Of a DNA stretch of 64,000 bases, positions 2,217 to 40,704 are shown piece by piece; position 1 is the first letter of the stretch; every line of letters starts with the position of its first letter. The DNA is taken from NCBI GenBank assembly GCA_944332815.1, contig CALVKQ010000004.1, forward strand, positions 69,319-133,318, in the 5' to 3' direction. This stretch comes from an uncultured Clostridia bacterium (GTDB lineage: Bacteria > Bacillota > Clostridia > Christensenellales > CAG-917). Both the position numbers and the translations under genes were made by a program. The notes under the pieces were generated by a model. The model was not told the DNA's origin, made no database searches, and saw only the letters and a program-made list of their open reading frames with translations.

Positions 2217-4171
<1,955 letters not shown>

Positions 4172-10380: not shown

Positions 10381-10760
10381 AATTTCCGTAAATAAAATTT
10401 CCCCGCATCGGGGAGGAGGAGCTGCAGTCCCCTGACATGGGAATATTGTTCCCCCACCTTCCCTTCGGGCTTTCCTCCCCCACTCGGTAAGAGTTCAGCC
10501 CCCCTAAAATGCGGGATATACTTTCCGTCCATTTTGATAAAGTTTTAGTATCGCATAGAGATAATCAAGCGGCGAACAGAATAAACTAAACATCGCTCGC
10601 GGGGAGAGGAAGGCGACTCGACGCGCACGGCGCCCGTGTCTACTTAATTATCCGTCTGGCTTGCGAGGTCGCATTTCGCGCCGCGGCGTTCACGCGGCGG
10701 CAACGCCGCCTGTGAACGCTTGGGTGAGCGGCGCGTAATTCCGTCTTCGAAAGAGAAACG
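10381..10760 (-). repeat. Partial inverted copy of the modular hairpin-repeat family also seen at 28336-29305 and 39807-40644 (G-rich module plus the ACGCGCCGC hairpin module; lacks the 250-nt core)
   Basis: The reverse complement contains ttcgaagacggaattACGCGCCGCtcacccaa...GCGGCGCG and ccgagtgggggagga..cccgaagggaaggtgggggaacaatattcccatgtcaggggactgc. Both match modules in the other two loci. Confidence 0.7.
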
Positions 10761-10813
10761 TCGCGTTCGAGGCGAACGACCGTATTTTTGCGAGGCGAAG
10801 AGCAGGCGCAGGT

Positions 10814-11093
10814 ATGCCAGACCGGAATAATACGAACCGGGTCCTGCGCCGCCGATTTCCGCATGAACCGCGTCATTCGCCTTGCTAATACGATGGGGTA
10901 TTAGCGGCACCGACTTCCTTGTTCAATCAAAAATCGGCTGGCGCAGAACTGCTCGCACCTCAGAGCAAGAGATTTTCGGATGATTGTGTACAGGCGGAAC
11001 GCAGGCAATAGTATACATATTGGCAAGGTTCGGCTGTGCAAAAGCGCCGAAAAGAATTGCTCCGAGGCAGGTTCGTATAATTCCGGTCTGGCA
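10814..11093 (+). mobile_element. MITE-like non-autonomous element, copy 1 (280 bp, 25-nt terminal inverted repeats, no ORF)
   Basis: Left end ATGCCAGACCGGAATAATACGAACC; right end GGTTCGTATAATTCCGGTCTGGCAT. It aligns along its whole length with 33480..33760. Confidence 0.7.
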
Positions 11094-11103
11094 TAAAAGC
11101 AAG

Positions 11104-27817: not shown

Positions 27818-28339
27818 ATGGCTGAAAAAATCAAAAAAACCGTCAAGCCTACCGACAGCAACGTCATGCTGTGTCTGCTGTTCCTCGTCCTCGGCGTGCT
27901 GTTCGTGTGGCAGGGGGCAGGCATCATCGGCACCGCAATGATGATAATCGGCGTCATCCTGACCGTGCTTGGGCTCTTTGAACTCTTCAATCAGAATTGG
28001 ATCATGGGCATCATAGAGGTGATCCTGGGCGTCGCGTTGATAGTCATCGCAGCGACCGTCGGGGCACAGATCATGCTCCTTCTGCTCGGCATCGCCATCC
28101 TGCTCTTTGCCGTGATAGTGTGCGTCCTGGGGTTCAAGAACTTCAAAGGCATGGCGACCGTCGCCAAAGTCCTCTTCATCCTCACCATTCTGCTCGCCGT
28201 CACCGTAGGCGTCCTCTTCATCGTCGCCTACGTCGAGGTCCCCCAAGGTCTGTTCATCGCCATCGGCGCCATAAGCCTTGCCGTCGGAGTGGTGATGTTG
28301 GTGAAGGCTGCGTTGACCAGCGGTCGCAAAACCGTCTAA
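27818..28339 (+). CDS. Multi-pass small membrane protein (DUF308/HdeD-like appearance)
   Basis: 173 aa, almost entirely hydrophobic helices; RBS-like gaggtga lies upstream. Confidence 0.7.
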   Translation: MAEKIKKTVKPTDSNVMLCLLFLVLGVLFVWQGAGIIGTAMMIIGVILTVLGLFELFNQNWIMGIIEVILGVALIVIAATVGAQIMLLLLGIAILLFAVIVCVLGFKNFKGMATVAKVLFILTILLAVTVGVLFIVAYVEVPQGLFIAIGAISLAVGVVMLVKAALTSGRKTV

Positions 28340-29305
28340 ACGGCGCTATTTGGCGCAGAACTTTGTCAACGCCCTTGTCGTGGATGCTCACGTACGTCAA
28401 TGTACGCTCCGCCTCCCGACAAGGGCGTTTTCGCGTTCTGCATCCAAATATCGCCGTTTAGTACAGGGGGAGTTGAAATTATTTTTCCAAACCCTATTCG
28501 AAGACGGGTAAATATCCCATACCCCACGCACACTTATTCGGAGCGTGCTTGATAAATTACTCTCTCATTCAAAGACGTAATTACGCGCCGCTCAGCCAAA
28601 CTTGCACCGTGGGCGAATTTTCGCTCACGCTTGCAAGTCGCGGCGCGTTCAACCCCGTACACGATGCGCACTTATTCGGAGCGGAGCCGCAACAGGCGGC
28701 GACCGTGTGAGTGCCGAGCGCTAGACGAATAGTGCGCCGGCAATGCGCCACTCTCTTCGCGCAGCGGGCGCATTGCAAGCGGCATAACATGGCGGCTCCG
28801 TAAAGGTGCCGTCCTCGGAAGCAATCGTGCGCGAGCGCCGAAGGTTTCCCCCAAAATGGTGGGTTCCCTTTTAAGGGGGAACGATTTTGGGGGAAACCCG
28901 AAGGAAGGGGGCAAACAATACTTAAAGGTATGAGGAATGTCCCCTTTCCCCGAAGGGAAGGAGGGGGGCTGTACTCCCATGTCAGGGGACGCCCCCAATT
29001 AAACTTTACTCCACACATGTACTGGAGTAGAGCGCTCTTTCTTAATTCGGGACAAACGGGGACGGGGCAAAAATGTTCAAATGTGGGCATGCAACCCCAC
29101 ATCTGAACATTTGCGCACCCAAACCCCACAAGTGGGTACCCCTGCTTTACCCCGTCCCCGTTGTGTCCCAACGCGTTCCTGTGCCGGTATAACGTGAAGC
29201 ATGAGTGTGCGTACCTGAACCCGACACTCATTATTCGAAGACGTAATCGCTCACTTACTCGGAGTGCGCTTGATCAATAATTCTCTTTTCAAAGGCGGAA
29301 TAAAG
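28336..29305 (+). repeat. Modular hairpin-repeat locus B: stop-codon-proximal 126-nt palindrome, ~75-nt unit, ACGCGCCGC hairpin, 250-nt core, G-rich module, a large branched hairpin and a terminal unit
   Basis: About 970 nt between convergent genes with no credible ORF. It is co-linear with 39807..40644 and partly with 10381..10760 (inverted). Confidence 0.8.
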
Positions 29306-29329
29306 CCCCATCCCTCAACGACGACGGGG

Positions 29330-30193
29330 TCAGTGTCTGGCTTCGTCGGGGTGAGGGCCGAGGCGGCCTATTCGGGATACGGCGTCGAGAGCGGCGAGGT
29401 CGTCAGCGTCGAGGGAGAAGGAAAAGACGTCGGCGTTTTCGCGTATGCGCGACGGTGTTGCGGATTTGGGGAGGGGGAGCACCCCGTGTTCCAGGCAAAA
29501 ACGCACCAGCACCTGCGCTTCCGTCCTGCCGTGTTTTTGAGCCACTGCGGCGAGGACGGGATGCCCGAAAGCCTTGCCGCGGCAGAGGGGCGCCCAGCCT
29601 TCGACGACGATGCCGTTAGCCTGCGAGAAGGCGACGGCTTCCGTTTGATCGGCGTCGGTGAAACCGAAGTGGAACTCCACCTGATTTACCATAGGAGGCA
29701 CTTTACATTCACCTAAAAGTACGTTCAAGTGTGTTTTCAGGCAATTGCACACGCCGATGGCACGCACGCGTCCGTCGGCATAAAGACGTTCGAGCGCGCG
29801 CCACGTGTCAAGGAAACGTGAGGGGTATTCCGCCTTATAGTCCTTGGTGATAGGCCAATGCACAAGGTAGAGGTCAAGGGTGTCTAGCCCGAGTTTTTTT
29901 GCGGAGGCGTCGAAGGCGGCGAGAGTGGAGTCGTAGCCTTGGTGGGTGTTCCACACTTTGGTGGTGACGAATATCTCTTCGCGCGGCAAGCCGCTTTCGG
30001 ACACGGCTTTTCCGACGCTTTCCTCGTTGAAGTAAAACTCCGCGGTGTCGATGTGGCGATAGCCTGCGGCAAGGGCGGCGAGCACGCTCTCGGTGCAGAC
30101 GTCGCCGTCGGGGGTCTTATAGGTGCCGAAGCCCACGCAGGGGATGCGCACTCCGTTAGAGAGGGTGAAGCAGTCGGTGAGAGAGTTGTGCAT
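29330..30193 (-). CDS. Aldo/keto reductase (2,5-diketo-D-gluconate reductase-like)
   Basis: FTLSNGVRIPCVGFGTYK...AGYRHIDTAEFYFNEESVG...LDLYLVHWP. Confidence 0.9.
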   Translation of the reverse strand: MHNSLTDCFTLSNGVRIPCVGFGTYKTPDGDVCTESVLAALAAGYRHIDTAEFYFNEESVGKAVSESGLPREEIFVTTKVWNTHQGYDSTLAAFDASAKKLGLDTLDLYLVHWPITKDYKAEYPSRFLDTWRALERLYADGRVRAIGVCNCLKTHLNVLLGECKVPPMVNQVEFHFGFTDADQTEAVAFSQANGIVVEGWAPLCRGKAFGHPVLAAVAQKHGRTEAQVLVRFCLEHGVLPLPKSATPSRIRENADVFSFSLDADDLAALDAVSRIGRLGPHPDEARH

Positions 30194-32555: not shown

Positions 32556-33496
32556 TGCGCATCTCCGTCCATCCGCTCTTTTACGCGCTTGCCGTGCTGC
32601 TCGTGTTGTTCGGGCAGGCGGCGGCGTTCGTCTGGACTTTTGTCGCCGTATGCCTGCACGAACTGGGGCACGCGGCGGCGGCGCGTCTTCGCGGTTACGT
32701 CCCAAAGACGCTCACTCTCATGCCGTACGGCGCGATGATGAGTGCGGAGGAAGAGATGGACGGGCGCTCCTGCGTGCTGGTGGGGCTCGCCGGTCCTGCC
32801 GCCAATCTGCTTTGCGCCGCCCTGATACTCGCGTTGTGGTGGGTCTTTCCTGCCGCATATCCTTTCACGCGCGTGTTTTTGGCAGCCAATCTCGCGATCG
32901 CGCTTTTCAATCTGCTCCCCGTCTATCCGCTGGACGGTTCCAGAGTGCTGACGGGGCTTGCGTCCAACCGCATGAAAGCCGTTAAACGTATGCAGGCGGC
33001 AGGCATCGCGGTGAGCGTGGCGCTCTTTGTCCTGTTCATCATTTCCTTCATCATGAAAGCCGCCGCGTTTACCCTCGGGATAACGGCGGTATTCCTGTTT
33101 TCGGGGGCGGCGTTCGGGGCGAAGCGCGACACCTATGCGAGCGTGCTCGCGGCAGGTTGCAAAAACTACCGCGCAGGCGTGTGCGAACGGAGCGTGATAG
33201 TGAGTGCGGACACCCCTCTCGTCAGATTGTTCGGGTACGTGGACGGGCGCAACGTCACGCGTTTCAGAGTGGTGGAGGAACACGCCGACGGCGCCCCTCC
33301 CGACGAGGTATGCGTGCTCACGGAAGGAGAATTGCGCGGCATCGCGAAAGAGGGCAGACTTTCGCGCACCTTGCGCGAATGCGTCGCGGCAGGGAAGGGC
33401 TCCTCGCCCGAACTCCCTCCGTCCGCCATCTCCCTTTCCGAAAACGATGGCGGAGCGAACGATGCCGACCATGTCCGGCATGCCAGACCGAAATAA
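32552..33496 (+). CDS. M50 site-2 metalloprotease, SpoIVFB-like
   Basis: HExxH (LHELGHAAAA) and the NLLPVYPLDGSRV motif. Its position downstream of min genes matches Bacillus/Clostridium spoIVF. The last 5 codons and the stop lie inside the MITE-like element. Confidence 0.8.
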   Translation: MMRISVHPLFYALAVLLVLFGQAAAFVWTFVAVCLHELGHAAAARLRGYVPKTLTLMPYGAMMSAEEEMDGRSCVLVGLAGPAANLLCAALILALWWVFPAAYPFTRVFLAANLAIALFNLLPVYPLDGSRVLTGLASNRMKAVKRMQAAGIAVSVALFVLFIISFIMKAAAFTLGITAVFLFSGAAFGAKRDTYASVLAAGCKNYRAGVCERSVIVSADTPLVRLFGYVDGRNVTRFRVVEEHADGAPPDEVCVLTEGELRGIAKEGRLSRTLRECVAAGKGSSPELPPSAISLSENDGGANDADHVRHARPK

Positions 33497-33760
33497 TACG
33501 AACCAGGTTCAGCGCCGCCGATTTCCGCCTGAACCGCGTCATTCGCCTTGCTAATACAGTCAAGTATTAGCTGCAGCGACTTCCTTGCTCAGCCAAAAAT
33601 CGGCGGGCGCGGAACTGCTCGCACCTCAGAGCAAAAGATTTTCGGATGATGTTGCACGGGCGGAACGCAGGCAATAGTATATATATTGGCAAGGTTCGGC
33701 TGTGCAAAAGCGCCGAAAAGAATTGCTCCGAGGCTGGTTCGTATTATTCCGGTCTGGCAT
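33480..33760 (+). mobile_element. MITE-like non-autonomous element, copy 2 (281 bp)
   Basis: ATGCCAGACCGAAATAATACGAACC ... GGTTCGTATTATTCCGGTCTGGCAT; co-linear with 10814..11093. Confidence 0.7.
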
Positions 33761-38729: not shown

Positions 38730-38819
38730 CAATGTGGGAAGACGCAACAGGGCTTGCGGTTTGCGGCGCGATGTGCTATCATCATTGCGTCGGCATTGCC
38801 GCATAATAAGGGGTGGAGC

Positions 38820-39806
38820 ATGAAAGCCTGGCATATAGAGAATCTGGAACGTATCAAGCTCGTCGAGAGCGTCCTTCCCAAAAAGGAAGGGGAGGTCAAG
38901 CTCAGGATATCCAAAGTGGCGATATCTTCGACGGACTTTTCCTATTTCGCTTCGGATTCCCCCAACAAGAACGCCGCGCTCACCGTTCCCGGGCATTCCG
39001 CGGTGGCGTATATGTCCGAAGACGACGCCGATCTGGTGTTGAAAATGGGCACGCGCGTCGTGGTGAGCCCTTTCGTGATGAGAGAGGAACACGGTGTGAA
39101 AAAAGTCAGCGTGCTGGGAGTGGACAGCGACGGGTTGCTCTCCGACTTCGCTTCCGTGCCTGCCGAGAACGTTTACGCGCTCCCCGACGGCATCCCCGAC
39201 GACGAAGCCATATTCGCGGAGTATATCGCGCTCGGCAACAACGTCCTCAACAGCCTGGAAGCAGGCAAAGGCGATTTTGTCGTGATAGTGGGCGCAAGCA
39301 CGCTCGGGCTCATACTGGCGCAGCTCGCGCTGTACTATCAGATGATCCCCGTCCTCGTGGACCTTGACGCCGAAAAGCTCGCGCTCGCGGCAAGCTGGGG
39401 GGTATATTACACCCTCAATCCCACTTACGATAATCTGGAACGCCGCGTGGAAGAGATAACGGGCGGCAGGATGGCGGAGTCCTCCGTCTACGTCGGCGAC
39501 GGCGTGCCATTCAACATGGCGCTGCGCCTCGTCAAAGATAAAGGCGAAGTCGTGGTGGCAGGCTACTCCGTACGCTCCGGGCACACCATCGACGTCAGTG
39601 TGGTGCTGCAAAAACAGCTCAAACTCATCGGCGTCGCGGACGGCTACGGCGAAATGTCCTCCGCAATAAACCTGCTCGCCAACCGCATCATCAAAACCGA
39701 CGGGCTCATCAACTCTCGCATCGACTTCTCCGAAGTGCCCGAAATGGTCGTGCAATGTGCGGAGTATCCTTATCAGTATAATAAGATAGTCGTCAACATC
39801 GATTAA
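38820..39806 (+). CDS. Medium-chain dehydrogenase/reductase (alcohol dehydrogenase-like) protein lacking the usual catalytic-zinc Cys
   Basis: MKAWHIENLERIKLVE...GHSAVAY...VVIVGASTLGLILAQLA (Rossmann fold). It has SSTD where CGTD is typical. RBS aggggtggag lies upstream. Confidence 0.75.
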   Translation: MKAWHIENLERIKLVESVLPKKEGEVKLRISKVAISSTDFSYFASDSPNKNAALTVPGHSAVAYMSEDDADLVLKMGTRVVVSPFVMREEHGVKKVSVLGVDSDGLLSDFASVPAENVYALPDGIPDDEAIFAEYIALGNNVLNSLEAGKGDFVVIVGASTLGLILAQLALYYQMIPVLVDLDAEKLALAASWGVYYTLNPTYDNLERRVEEITGGRMAESSVYVGDGVPFNMALRLVKDKGEVVVAGYSVRSGHTIDVSVVLQKQLKLIGVADGYGEMSSAINLLANRIIKTDGLINSRIDFSEVPEMVVQCAEYPYQYNKIVVNID

Positions 39807-40644
39807 CTAAACGCCGCTATTTGGCGAATAGCTTTGTCAGCCTCGCATCTCCGACCGCTTATGTACGAAAGTACACCGCGCGTCCGGATATGCGAGGCTT
39901 TCGCGCTCTTCATCCAAATATCGGCGTTTAGACCGTTGGGGGGTATTTTTCTAAACCCTATTCGAAGACGGAACAATGCCCCAATTCCTCACGCGCGCTT
40001 ATCGGGAGCGTGCTCAAATACACTCTACACTCATTCGAAGAAAGAACTATATATATCCCCATACTCCACGCGCACTCTTTCGGAGCGTGCTTAATTAAAT
40101 TTATCCTTCATTCGAAGACGGAATAACGCGCCGCTCAGCCAAACTTGCACCGTGGGCGAGCATCGCCCATGCTTGCAAGTCGCGGCGCGTCCCAACCCCG
40201 TACACGACGCGCACTTATTCGGAGCGGAGCCGCAACAGGCGGCGACCGTGTGAGTGCCGAGCGCTAGACGAATAGTGCGCCGGCAATGCGCCACTCTCTT
40301 CGCGCAGCGGGCGCATTGCAAGCGGCATAACATGGCGGCTCCGTAAAGGTGCCGTCCTCGGAAGCAGTCGTGCGCGAGCGCCGAAGGTTTCCCCAAAAAT
40401 GGTGGGTTCCCTTTTAAGGGGGAACGATTTTGGGGGAAACCCGAAGGAAGGGGGCAAACAACACTTAAATGTTAGGAGGATTGTCCTCTATTCCGAGTGG
40501 GGGAGGAGTCCCGAATGGGGCTCCCCACAAAATGCATGCATTTTGTGGGGTCCCCGGGAAGGAGGGGGCACAATACTCCCATGTCAGGGAACGCGAAACC
40601 CCCATTAAACTTTATTTTACACGCCCCCATGTCAGGGGACTGCC
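39807..40644 (+). repeat. Modular hairpin-repeat locus C: 125-nt palindrome, two ~75-nt units, ACGCGCCGC hairpin, 250-nt core, G-rich module with a perfect 28-nt palindrome
   Basis: About 840 nt between convergent genes with no credible ORF; co-linear with 28336..29305. Confidence 0.8.
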
Positions 40645-40676
40645 CTAAAACAAAAGCCGCTCTGGGGAGCGGCTTT
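40645..40676 (-). terminator. Intrinsic terminator of galT
   Basis: On the minus strand: AAAGCCGCTC-ccca-GAGCGGCTTT followed by TGTTTTAG. Confidence 0.7.
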
Positions 40677-40704
40677 CGGGAGTCGTTGTTTCGGTGGCGG
40701 AGCC

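What the first reader, a model, noticed from the sequence alone, without database searches (positions are those of the whole stretch)
28336..28461. Stop-codon-proximal ~125-nt imperfect palindromes with conserved tips and compensatory stem changes (28336-28461 and 39807-39931)
Both elements start at or immediately after a stop codon with CTAAACG(G/C)CGCTATTTGGCG and end with CATCCAAATATCG(C/G)CGTTTAG. The terminal stem carries a double compensatory change: GGCG/CGCC in copy B vs GCCG/CGGC in copy C. The interiors differ in sequence but still pair: AACGCCCTTGTCG/CGACAAGGGCGTT in B vs AGCCTCGCAT/ATGCGAGGCT in C. Apical stems are CGTAC/GTACG in B and GTAC-gaaa-GTAC in C. Conserved structure over diverged sequence implies selection on a hairpin in RNA or single-stranded DNA. 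The layout (conserved CTAAAC...GTTTAG tips, variable palindromic centre, position right after a gene) recalls integron attC or REP/BIME elements. No integrase or RAYT gene is present in this window.
Basis: partly seen in the sequence, partly recalled or inferred. Interest (0 to 1): 0.62.

Follow-up and report, generated by a model that had tools for sequence, protein, structure and literature searches.

The report
Stop-codon-anchored hairpin repeats of gut Clostridia
The two 125-base palindromes are real copies of an uncatalogued family of folded DNA repeats in uncultured gut Clostridia; each starts on a gene's stop codon, always faces the same way, is swapped between close strains, and probably acts as a portable gene-end (terminator-like) module.

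Summary
Both palindromes exist as described, at 28336-28461 and 39807-39931. They fold far better than shuffles (z -9.5 to -13).

They belong to a family. I collected 23 copies from about ten different gene ends in chicken and human gut Clostridia.
- 93.9% of the cells in 40 modelled pairs are paired. 30 pairs show compensatory double changes (0/500 shuffles).
- Unpaired features are conserved: a C.T mismatch, an asymmetric internal loop, a bulged C and an apical GTAC hairpin.
- Every first copy lies in one orientation relative to the upstream gene. The stop codon usually sits inside the first 4-5 nt of the basal helix.
- The stop codon type (TAA or TGA) changes together with the hairpin tip.
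- Orthologous sites are empty, with ordinary terminators, in relatives at 81-89% protein identity. Strains whose upstream gene is 99.4-100% identical carry different alleles.

The middle helix is followed on the sense strand by a U-rich tract. Truncated copies are plain terminators. The likeliest role is therefore a mobile gene-end or terminator-like cassette that may also affect translation termination.

It fails the tested defining features of attC and REP/REPIN and the orientation and duplication expectations of a TA-targeting MITE, and it has no Rfam match. How it spreads is unknown.

The parts
28336..28461 (+). Copy B, full-length stop-anchored hairpin (126 nt)
   Evidence: 129.5 bits, E 2e-27. 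The + strand scores 77 bits above the - strand.
28337..28339 (+). TAA stop codon of the 173-aa membrane-protein gene (27818-28339), lying inside the basal helix of B
   Evidence: In orthologues the stop is TAA or TGA according to the tip type of the element.
28336..28353 (+). B basal helix, 5' arm (CTAAACGGCGCTATTTGG). It pairs with 28444-28461. There is a conserved C.T mismatch between 28346 and 28451.
28368..28380 (+). B variable middle helix, 5' arm (AACGCCCTTGTCG). It pairs with 28417-28429.
   Evidence: helix 2: 10 of 12 pairs show double changes.
28391..28406 (+). B apical hairpin CGTAC-GTCAAT-GTACG
   Evidence: helix 3: 99% paired.
28430..28443 (+). B pyrimidine/U-rich tract after the middle helix (TTCGCGTTCTGCAT)
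   Evidence: mean T is 0.46 after the helix on the sense strand and 0.21 on the antisense strand.
28444..28461 (+). B basal helix, 3' arm (CCAAATATCGCCGTTTAG)
39807..39931 (+). Copy C, full-length stop-anchored hairpin (125 nt), starting directly after the ADH-like gene's TAA (39804-39806)
   Evidence: (136.6 bits, E 5e-29).
39807..39824 (+). C basal helix, 5' arm. It pairs with 39914-39931.
39839..39848 (+). C variable middle helix, 5' arm (AGCCTCGCAT). It pairs with 39890-39899. Near-identical C-type copies (at other gene ends) in L029 and L042 read AGCCCCGCAT/ATGCGGGGCT and AGCCCCACAT/ATGTGGGGCT.
39863..39874 (+). C apical hairpin GTAC-GAAA-GTAC
39900..39913 (+). C U-rich tract after the middle helix (TTCGCGCTCTTCAT)
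28462..29290 (+). Context only: a composite of other repeat families that follows B (TTCGAAGACGG units, CGCGCCGC-hairpin, 280-nt module, GGGAAGGAGGGGG module)
39932..40660 (+). Context only: the same composite following C

Best explanation
B and C are two members of a large, uncatalogued family of ~125-nt 'stop-codon-anchored' hairpin repeats. The family occurs in uncultured gut Clostridia: relatives of Candidatus Limadaptatus and Christensenellales-type MAGs from chicken and human gut.

Anatomy, read in the sense of the upstream gene:
1. A stop codon (TAA or TGA) sits at nt 2-5 of the element.
2. A 17-18-bp basal helix contains that stop codon and a conserved C.T mismatch.
3. A conserved asymmetric internal loop follows (..GGCGAAYARC.G.GTCA on the left, CTTYC..GTTCTTCATCC on the right).
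4. A GC-rich middle helix of free sequence comes next.
5. An apical domain carries a bulged C and a GTAC-loop-GTAC tip.
6. After the 3' side of the middle helix lies a U-rich tract.

Shown:
- The fold is kept by compensatory change.
- The orientation relative to the upstream gene is fixed.
- The helix starts at the stop codon, and the stop type changes with the tip.
- The element is present, absent or replaced at the same gene end among close relatives and strains.

Inferred:
- In the mRNA the element serves as the gene's 3'-end module, a terminator-like or protective hairpin in the place where relatives have an ordinary intrinsic terminator.
- Because the helix begins at the stop codon, the terminating ribosome must melt it. 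This probably modulates termination and yield, as reported for E. coli REPs within 15 nt of a stop.
- At the DNA level, copies are installed and exchanged by an unidentified copying process. This could be ectopic conversion through the conserved arms, or a hairpin-specific enzyme encoded elsewhere.
For: Family and fold:
- Covariance model R1 finds 23 forward copies at E<1e-12 in ~154 kb of clostridial loci. It finds none in ~930 kb of unrelated viral contigs.
- 93.9% of cells are paired and 30/40 pairs have double changes.
- Unpaired features are conserved.

Anchoring and orientation:
- All first copies lie on the same strand as the upstream ORF, with its stop from -15 to +5 of the element start, mostly embedded. 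Together they cover about ten gene families: GAPDH, Fe-ADH, M29 peptidase, DUF711, flavin oxidoreductase, DUF4364, MDR-ADH, the 173-aa protein and others.
- This holds on both genes of a convergent pair (L064).

Stop codon belongs to the helix:
- The 173-aa gene ends GTC TAA-AACCGCG... or GTC TGA-GGGCAC....
- The ADH gene ends TGA in empty sites, and TGA or TAA according to the tip where an element is present.

Gain and loss:
- The ADH site is empty, with canonical terminators, in L219 (89% aa), L065-67 (86%) and L068-70 (81%).
- The DUF4364 site is empty in L065, L066, L069 and L219.

Strain-level replacement:
- The upstream gene is 99.4-100% identical in DNA, yet there are three or more different alleles downstream.

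Terminator-like core:
- T fraction after the middle helix is 0.46 on the sense strand against 0.21 on the antisense strand.
- Truncated copies are the left arm plus a canonical terminator (L071/L075, L074, L064 5238-5322).
- No canonical terminator is predicted on the + strand after either window gene.

Transcription:
- Contigs from RNA libraries run from the ADH gene into the element, and one spans it.

Precedent:
- REPs within 15 nt of a stop stall ribosomes (Liang et al. 2015, as summarised in PMC12306157).
- SPRITE is a terminator-like repeat lying close to CDS 3' ends (PMC3049150).
Against: - The U-tract is modest (UUUCGCG.. or CUUCCUUGUUCUU), and the 'loop' of the putative terminator is a ~40-nt structured domain. 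Termination has not been shown.
- If termination occurred at that tract, the conserved 3' basal arm would not be transcribed. Its conservation then needs another reason: read-through RNA, a DNA-level role or mobility.
- The antisense strand folds better in 22/23 copies, by a mean of 7.6 kcal/mol, and has more G.U pairs (51 against 32). The folding strand is therefore not settled.
- A terminator or stabiliser role alone does not explain why the helix must begin exactly at the stop codon.
- The RNA evidence comes from assembled contigs that may include DNA and that break at repeats.
- No mechanism of spread was identified, and no genome-wide census was possible.
Confidence: 0.55

Rival explanations
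1. A selfish single-stranded-DNA hairpin element. It would be moved in trans by a hairpin-reading HUH/Y1 transposase (REP/REPIN-RAYT or IS200/IS605 style). The T-R-A at the left foot would be the cleavage or target site, and each subfamily would specify its own target. Any effect on the mRNA would be a side effect.
For: - Conserved mismatch and bulges in a covarying stem are typical of protein-read DNA hairpins.
- The bottom strand folds better in 22/23 copies.
- Breakpoints recur at CGCTAT|TTGG beside the mismatch: the small-hairpin insertion in L073, truncated second copies in L072 and L074, and the remnant tip before L029 5497.
- Identical interiors occur at unrelated loci (L076, L064 5110-5237 and L218).
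- Precise presence or absence at gene ends.
- Stop type covaries with subfamily.
- Earlier notes report a RAYT-like gene in this genome (e1-2218534). I did not check this.
Against: - A 3-4-nt target would occur several times in every intergenic region, yet nearly all first copies sit on true stop codons.
- Orientation follows the gene even on convergent pairs, not a replication strand.
- There is no GTAG or CGTC tag, and the element is not a REP doublet.
- No transposase was seen in the window or in the loci I annotated.
- The partner could not be searched for.
Confidence: 0.25
2. Primarily a regulator of translation termination. A very stable helix that starts at the stop codon would slow or stall the terminating ribosome and so tune protein yield or trigger rescue or decay, as described for E. 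coli REPs lying less than 16 nt from a stop. The terminator-like features would be secondary.
For: - The exact anchoring of the helix on the stop codon across about ten gene families.
- The 3' tip is kept complementary to whichever stop codon is present.
- Literature precedent.
Against: - It is hard to see why GAPDH, peptidases and dehydrogenases would all be down-tuned.
- Strains with and without the element coexist.
- In copy C and three other copies the helix starts 0-15 nt after the stop rather than on it.
- Nothing was measured.
Confidence: 0.12
3. A TA-targeting MITE of the IS630/Tc1-mariner type. It would have inserted into CTAG or TTAA with TA duplication, and its closeness to stop codons would simply reflect where TA-containing palindromic tetranucleotides occur.
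For: Type-1 copies are flanked C-TA...TA-G or T-TA...TA-A. Removing the element plus one TA usually restores an in-frame TAG or TAA.
Against: - Type-2 copies (CTGAGGGCA...TGCCCTCAG) have no TA duplication.
- L072 would lose its stop codon on such an excision.
- Orientation is never reversed, which a MITE with symmetric ends would not achieve.
- The arms differ in conserved ways, and the interior covaries like a folded molecule.
Confidence: 0.04
4. An integron-type attC site, or CALIN-like orphan attC, recombined as a folded bottom strand by an IntI integrase.
For: - It lies right after an ORF and is co-oriented with it.
- Its size is within the attC range.
- It has conserved extrahelical bases on a stem of variable sequence.
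- The bottom strand folds better.
Against: - The R boxes are not conserved. CTAAAC/GTTTAG deviates from RYYYAAC/GTTRRRY, and other tips are CTGAGGGCA, TTTAAGCG and GTAAAGCG.
- The upstream genes are syntenic core genes whose orthologues carry ordinary terminators.
- There are no cassette arrays and no integrase in the window.
Confidence: 0.02

Closest known systems
[quoted passage not shown]
   Same: Both are interspersed non-coding repeats of Firmicutes with a long duplex followed by a U-rich tract (~48% U there, ~46% here). Both are enriched close to CDS 3' ends and between convergent genes. Neither has an identified transposase.
   Different: SPRITE is AT-rich and has an 18-bp duplex with AAAA/TTTT ends. 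It is not reported to start on the stop codon, to carry the stop codon in its helix, or to have a strictly fixed orientation. There is no sequence relation. Here there is also a conserved apical domain and a second, outer helix.
REP / BIME / REPIN elements with RAYT transposases (E. coli, Pseudomonas)
   Same: Both are extragenic palindromic repeats at gene ends, kept as hairpins by compensatory change, sometimes in tandem or mosaic clusters. REPs less than 16 nt from a stop codon affect translation.
   Different: REP units are 20-40 nt with a GTAG or CGTC tag and occur in both orientations. Only a minority lie at stop codons (11% within 15 nt in PMC12306157). Here a single 125-nt hairpin with distinct arms is anchored on the stop in one orientation, and no RAYT link has been shown.
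ERIC/IRU and Correia (NEMIS) elements
   Same: These are ~100-155-bp imperfect palindromes in transcribed intergenic regions that fold as long RNA hairpins (my own knowledge, plus the reviews listed).
   Different: They are MITE-like, with TA target duplication, and occur in either orientation. Their sequence is conserved rather than their structure. They do not embed the stop codon.
Integron attC sites
   Same: Both are structure-defined hairpins of variable sequence with conserved extrahelical bases, lying directly after an ORF and co-oriented with it.
   Different: There are no R/L boxes, no cassette arrays and no integrase context, and the upstream genes are fixed housekeeping genes.

Membership tests
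Integron attC | Conserved R'' (RYYYAAC) and R' (GTTRRRY) boxes at the foot of the hairpin | tested here: not met
   The tips are CTAAAC/GTTTAG in B and C. In other members they are CTGAGGGCA/TGCCCTCAG, TTTAAGCG/GCTTAAA and GTAAAGCG/CGCTTTAC.
Integron attC | Cassette array next to an intI integrase and attI, with mobile ORFs upstream | tested here: not met
   The upstream genes are syntenic core genes whose orthologues lack the element. No integrase domain was found in the window ORFs I scanned. The rest of the genome could not be searched.
Integron attC | Extrahelical bases and a functional folded bottom strand | tested here: inconclusive
   There is a conserved C.T mismatch and a bulged C. 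The bottom strand is more stable in 22/23 copies. No recombination data exist.
REP / REPIN - RAYT | A 20-40-nt palindromic unit with a 5' GTAG or CGTC tag, and REPIN as an inverted doublet of such units | tested here: not met
   The element is a single 125-nt hairpin. It has no such tag, and the arms are not themselves REP palindromes.
REP / REPIN - RAYT | A RAYT gene flanked by the same repeats in the genome | not testable with these tools
Earlier notes mention a RAYT-like gene tied to a different hairpin family (GGGGAC).
MITE (IS630/Tc1-mariner type) | TA target-site duplication and insertion in either orientation | tested here: not met
   Type-2 copies lack TA flanks. All first copies are co-oriented with the upstream gene.
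MITE (IS630/Tc1-mariner type) | A parent IS with matching terminal inverted repeats | not tested
   No full-length IS with these ends was seen in any locus, but no dedicated search was possible.
Intrinsic (Rho-independent) terminator | A GC-rich stem with a short loop, followed directly by a U-tract on the transcribed strand | tested here: inconclusive
   The middle helix is GC-rich and is followed by a 46% T tract on the sense strand only. However, its loop is a ~40-nt domain, and the simple scanner finds nothing. Truncated family members are canonical terminators.
SPRITE-like terminator-like repeat | A dispersed repeat with a long duplex plus U-rich tract, close to CDS 3' ends | tested here: met
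   This is a resemblance in kind only, with no sequence homology tested.
Any Rfam family | A match at the gathering score | tested here: not met
   There were 0 hits over the window. Only chance-level hits appeared in 28250-29400, and none on the element.

The most novel reading that the evidence does not exclude
The element may be a new kind of mobile 'gene-end cassette'. It would be a non-coding module that brings its own stop codon and terminator-like hairpin. An active, orientation-aware mechanism would install it exactly at the sense/stop boundary of housekeeping genes, replacing the previous stop codon and 3' end. That mechanism might be coupled to transcription or translation, or guided by the hairpin foot pairing with the stop codon. 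It could later be swapped for another family member at the same position.
Probability: 0.3. Interest if true: 0.85.

Novelty: new variant of a known kind. Interest (0 to 1): 0.62.

Why it matters
Interspersed hairpin repeats at gene ends are familiar (REP, SPRITE, ERIC). This family is different in three ways:
- It begins on the stop codon.
- It keeps the stop codon base-paired.
- It always faces the same way, and it is exchanged between strains whose neighbouring gene is identical.

I found no such element described in Rfam or in the papers I searched.

Why it would matter:
- It gives a concrete, testable case of how repeats shape bacterial mRNA 3' ends and translation termination.
- It explains the hypervariable, kilobase-long 'empty' gaps between genes in these gut Clostridia.
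- It provides strain-level markers.
- It could yield compact, portable terminator or insulator parts.
- If the anchoring proves to be mechanistic, it would reveal a targeting principle that recognises the ends of reading frames.

Tried and rejected
I could therefore make no genome-wide census and no search for intI, RAYT or IS200/IS605 genes.
- The exact-tip scan of genome contigs gave 59 loci. Only L029, L042 and L033 were true members; the rest were single chance matches.
- Rfam at gathering and at E-value threshold gave nothing.
- Two viral-contig scans followed by the covariance model gave no member. This serves as a negative control.
- tRNA/tmRNA search found none.
- The simple terminator scanner was uninformative for a hairpin with a long structured loop. 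It also missed a terminator visible by eye at 40646-40680 on the minus strand.
- Strand assignment from G.U versus A.C gave contradictory answers. The sense-based consensus gave 21 against 8. The free folds gave 32 against 51, with the antisense strand more stable. I left the strand open.
- RNA-library contigs all break about 31 nt into the element, where the conserved arm ends. This is an assembly effect, so they give no 3'-end information.
- Liang et al. 2015 and 2016 are not held in the library. I cite them only through PMC12306157.
- I considered and rejected a TA-duplicating MITE and attC. See the rival explanations.
Full report
**Observation**

- B runs 28336-28461 and C runs 39807-39931.
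- The 18-nt tip occurs four times in the window, once on each arm of each element, against 0.1 expected.
- Each element folds into one long hairpin on either strand (-65 to -79 kcal/mol; z -9.5 to -13.3).
- The stop codon of the 173-aa gene (27818-28339) is the TAA inside the CTAAAC of B.
- The stop of the ADH-like gene (38754-39806) directly abuts C.

**Context in the window**

Both elements lie at the left edge of ~0.9-kb ORF-free gaps between convergent genes.
- The gaps are filled with other repeat families. Examples are a 280-nt module that is 98% identical between the two loci, 41-nt units, and a hairpin closed by CGCGCCGC.
- In other genomes the palindrome also occurs without those modules. 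It is therefore an independent unit.
- Rfam has no match and there are no tRNAs.
- Pfam scans of the window's ORFs found repair, transport and metabolic genes but no integrase or transposase.
- The window comes from a chicken-gut organism.
No genome-wide census was possible.

**The family**

- An exact-tip scan of representative genomes gave three true members: Candidatus Limadaptatus stercoripullorum L029, an uncultured Clostridia MAG L042, and L033.
- A gapped two-arm pattern in metagenomes gave one orthologous site in four assemblies of a lower-GC organism (L060-L063). The tips are the same there, but L060 carries a completely different, still self-complementary interior.
- Orthologues of the two upstream window genes, found by protein search and fetched with their flanks, yielded many more copies.
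- A covariance model built from 11 copies finds 23 forward-strand copies at E<1e-12 in ~154 kb of these loci. It finds none in ~930 kb of unrelated viral contigs.
- On the 23-sequence alignment, 93.9% of cells in 40 pairs are paired and 30 pairs show changes on both sides. None of 500 shuffles reaches this, and sliding the partners drops pairing to 34-48%.
- Even the 'conserved tips' covary. CTAAACGSCG/CGSCGTTTAG becomes CTGAGGGCA/TGCCCTCAG, and TATTTGG/CCAAATA becomes TATTCGG/CCGAATA or TATTTCG/CGAAATA. In one copy the whole basal helix is flipped.
- What stays constant is unpaired or asymmetric:
  - a C.T mismatch at position 11;
  - the left-hand GGCGAAYARC..GTCA opposite the right-hand CTTYC..GTTCTTCATCC;
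  - a bulged C in the apical domain;
  - the GTAC-loop-GTAC tip.
- This is the signature of a folded single strand that is read by something, not of a transposase-bound inverted repeat.

**Position and polarity**

- For every first copy, the same-strand upstream ORF ends between -15 and +5 of the element's first base. In most, the stop codon is nt 2-4 or 3-5 of the element: C[TAA]AC, C[TGA]GG, TT[TAA]GC.
- The upstream genes are unrelated housekeeping genes: GAPDH, Fe-ADH, M29 aminopeptidase, DUF711, a flavin oxidoreductase, DUF4364, an MDR dehydrogenase and a small membrane protein.
- The arm carrying CTATTYGGCG is always the one next to the gene. This holds on both genes of a convergent pair in L064.
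- Further copies follow the first in tandem.
- No solitary copy far from a gene end was seen in the sequence I held.

**The stop codon is part of the helix**

- The orthologous 173-aa gene ends ...GCC GTC TAA-AACCGCG... in one species and ...GCC GTC TGA-GGGCAC... in another. The 3' tip is TTA or TCA to match.
- The ADH gene ends GAC TGA in all empty sites. Where an element is present it ends TGA or TAA according to the tip type.

**Gain, loss and replacement**

- After the ADH gene, relatives at 89%, 86% and 81% protein identity have no element. They have an ordinary intrinsic terminator instead.
- Relatives at 92-94% identity, together with the window, carry four different alleles. One of these is a chimaera of two tip types.
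- The DUF4364 gene shows the same presence/absence pattern.
- Within one species, five assemblies whose 173-aa gene is 99.4-100% identical in DNA differ downstream. They carry:
  - a left arm plus a plain terminator;
  - two different full elements that share tips but not interiors;
  - a copy with a 37-nt small hairpin inserted at CGCTAT|TTGG.
- Identical interiors recur at unrelated loci: L076, L064 5110-5237 and L218.
- Copies are therefore made and exchanged quickly while the anchor on the stop codon is preserved.

**Likely function**

- On the sense strand, the GC-rich middle helix is followed by a pyrimidine-rich tract with 46% T. The corresponding antisense position has 21%.
- Truncated family members consist of the left arm followed by a canonical hairpin-plus-T-run terminator.
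- An arms-only 75-nt version also exists.
- Relatives without the element have a normal terminator at the same place.
- No canonical terminator is predicted on the + strand after either window gene.
- Contigs from RNA libraries run from the ADH gene into the element, and one spans it. They are assemblies, however, and break at the repeat.
- This fits a terminator-like or 3'-protective gene-end module, much as proposed for pneumococcal SPRITE.
- Because the helix starts at the stop codon, a terminating ribosome must open it. In E. coli, REPs within 15 nt of a stop stall ribosomes and lower expression (citing Liang et al. 2015). An effect on translation termination is therefore plausible.

**Open points**

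- The folding strand is not settled. The antisense strand is more stable in 22/23 copies and has more G.U pairs in free folds. The sense-based consensus shows the opposite bias.
- Part of this asymmetry follows from the unpaired U-rich right arm.
- If transcripts ended at the U-tract, the conserved 3' basal arm would not be in the RNA. A DNA-level role of the full palindrome, in mobility or recognition, therefore remains likely.
- Breakpoints recur beside the conserved mismatch at CGCTAT|TTGG. This hints at a specific cleavage or template-switch site, which is an inference.
- A short target such as TRA cannot by itself explain the near-exclusive use of true stop codons, because such triplets are frequent in the same intergenic regions (read directly). 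The anchoring is unexplained and is the most interesting feature.

**Comparison with known systems**

- The element fails the tests for attC: no R boxes, no cassettes and no integrase context.
- It fails for REP/REPIN on size, tag and doublet architecture.
- It fails for a TA-duplicating MITE: type-2 tips lack TA, and orientation is never reversed.
- It resembles SPRITE and REP in kind.
- Earlier notes from this scan (e1-2218537, e1-2276635, e1-2083345) describe the same or sister families as stop-anchored hairpins. My independent data agree.
- My data add four things: the covariation of stop type with tip, the series of empty sites, the within-species allele replacement, and the terminator-like truncated forms.

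**Verdict**

This is a real family, new to Rfam and to the papers I searched, of a familiar general kind but with an unusual and unexplained anchoring on stop codons.

Noticed in passing
L073:3534-3571, L072:3655-3745 and 3835-3875, L074:3665-3710: Small hairpins (ATCCGGGGYCCCCGC...GYGGGGTAWA) carry a GGGGAC motif on the other strand. They are nested inside the arms of the big hairpin, repeatedly at CGCTAT|TTGG. This looks like a second, REP-like mobile family that targets the first.
   Followed up: partly
window 10811-11094 and 33477-33760: A 284-nt element is present in two copies (91% identical). It has 26-nt terminal inverted repeats (TATGCCAGACCGGAATAATACGAACC) and looks like a MITE. The covariance model gives a marginal hit at 33508-33614 (E 0.05).
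   Followed up: no
window 28516-28556, 28654-28694, 29237-29277, 39981-40021, 40058-40098, 40197-40237: There are six copies of a ~41-nt unit (..CACGCGCACTTATTCGGAGCGTGCT..), each preceded by ATTCGAAGACGG. They form ~77-nt and ~138-nt periodic arrays just after both palindromes.
   Followed up: no
window 28583-28648, 40126-40190, 10677-10736 (inverted): A hairpin is closed by CGCGCCGC/GCGGCGCG, and its inner helix is swapped between copies (ACTTGCA.. against GCGTTCAC..). This is another covarying module of the composite.
   Followed up: no
L062:4530-4603 (minus strand): An arms-only mini version (~75 nt) of the stop-anchored hairpin lacks the middle and apical domains. It lies directly after another family member whose basal helix is flipped (CCAAATAG...CTATTTGG).
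   Followed up: partly
L218:3485-3612: A chimeric allele after the ADH gene has a left tip of the TAAAAC type and a right tip of the GCCCTCAG type, so the outermost helix is broken. It looks like a recombinant between two subfamilies.
   Followed up: partly
L065:5070-5200 and L066 same region: In relatives that lack the hairpin, tandem ~45-nt repeats (GCCTTCCGCGGCTTTTCGGGCTTTGCGCGCATTGTCGTGTCCGT) follow the ordinary ADH terminator.
   Followed up: no
window 40646-40680 (minus strand): A textbook intrinsic terminator of the GalT gene (GCCGCTC-CCCA-GAGCGGC followed by TTTTGTTTT) is visible by eye, but scan_promoters_terminators did not list it.
   Followed up: no
L029:6534-6658 and L063:8082-8209 / L062:4616-4743: The M29 aminopeptidase gene carries a stop-anchored hairpin both in a high-GC organism (Candidatus Limadaptatus) and in a low-GC organism. 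This is either an old insertion or repeated targeting of the same gene end.
   Followed up: no
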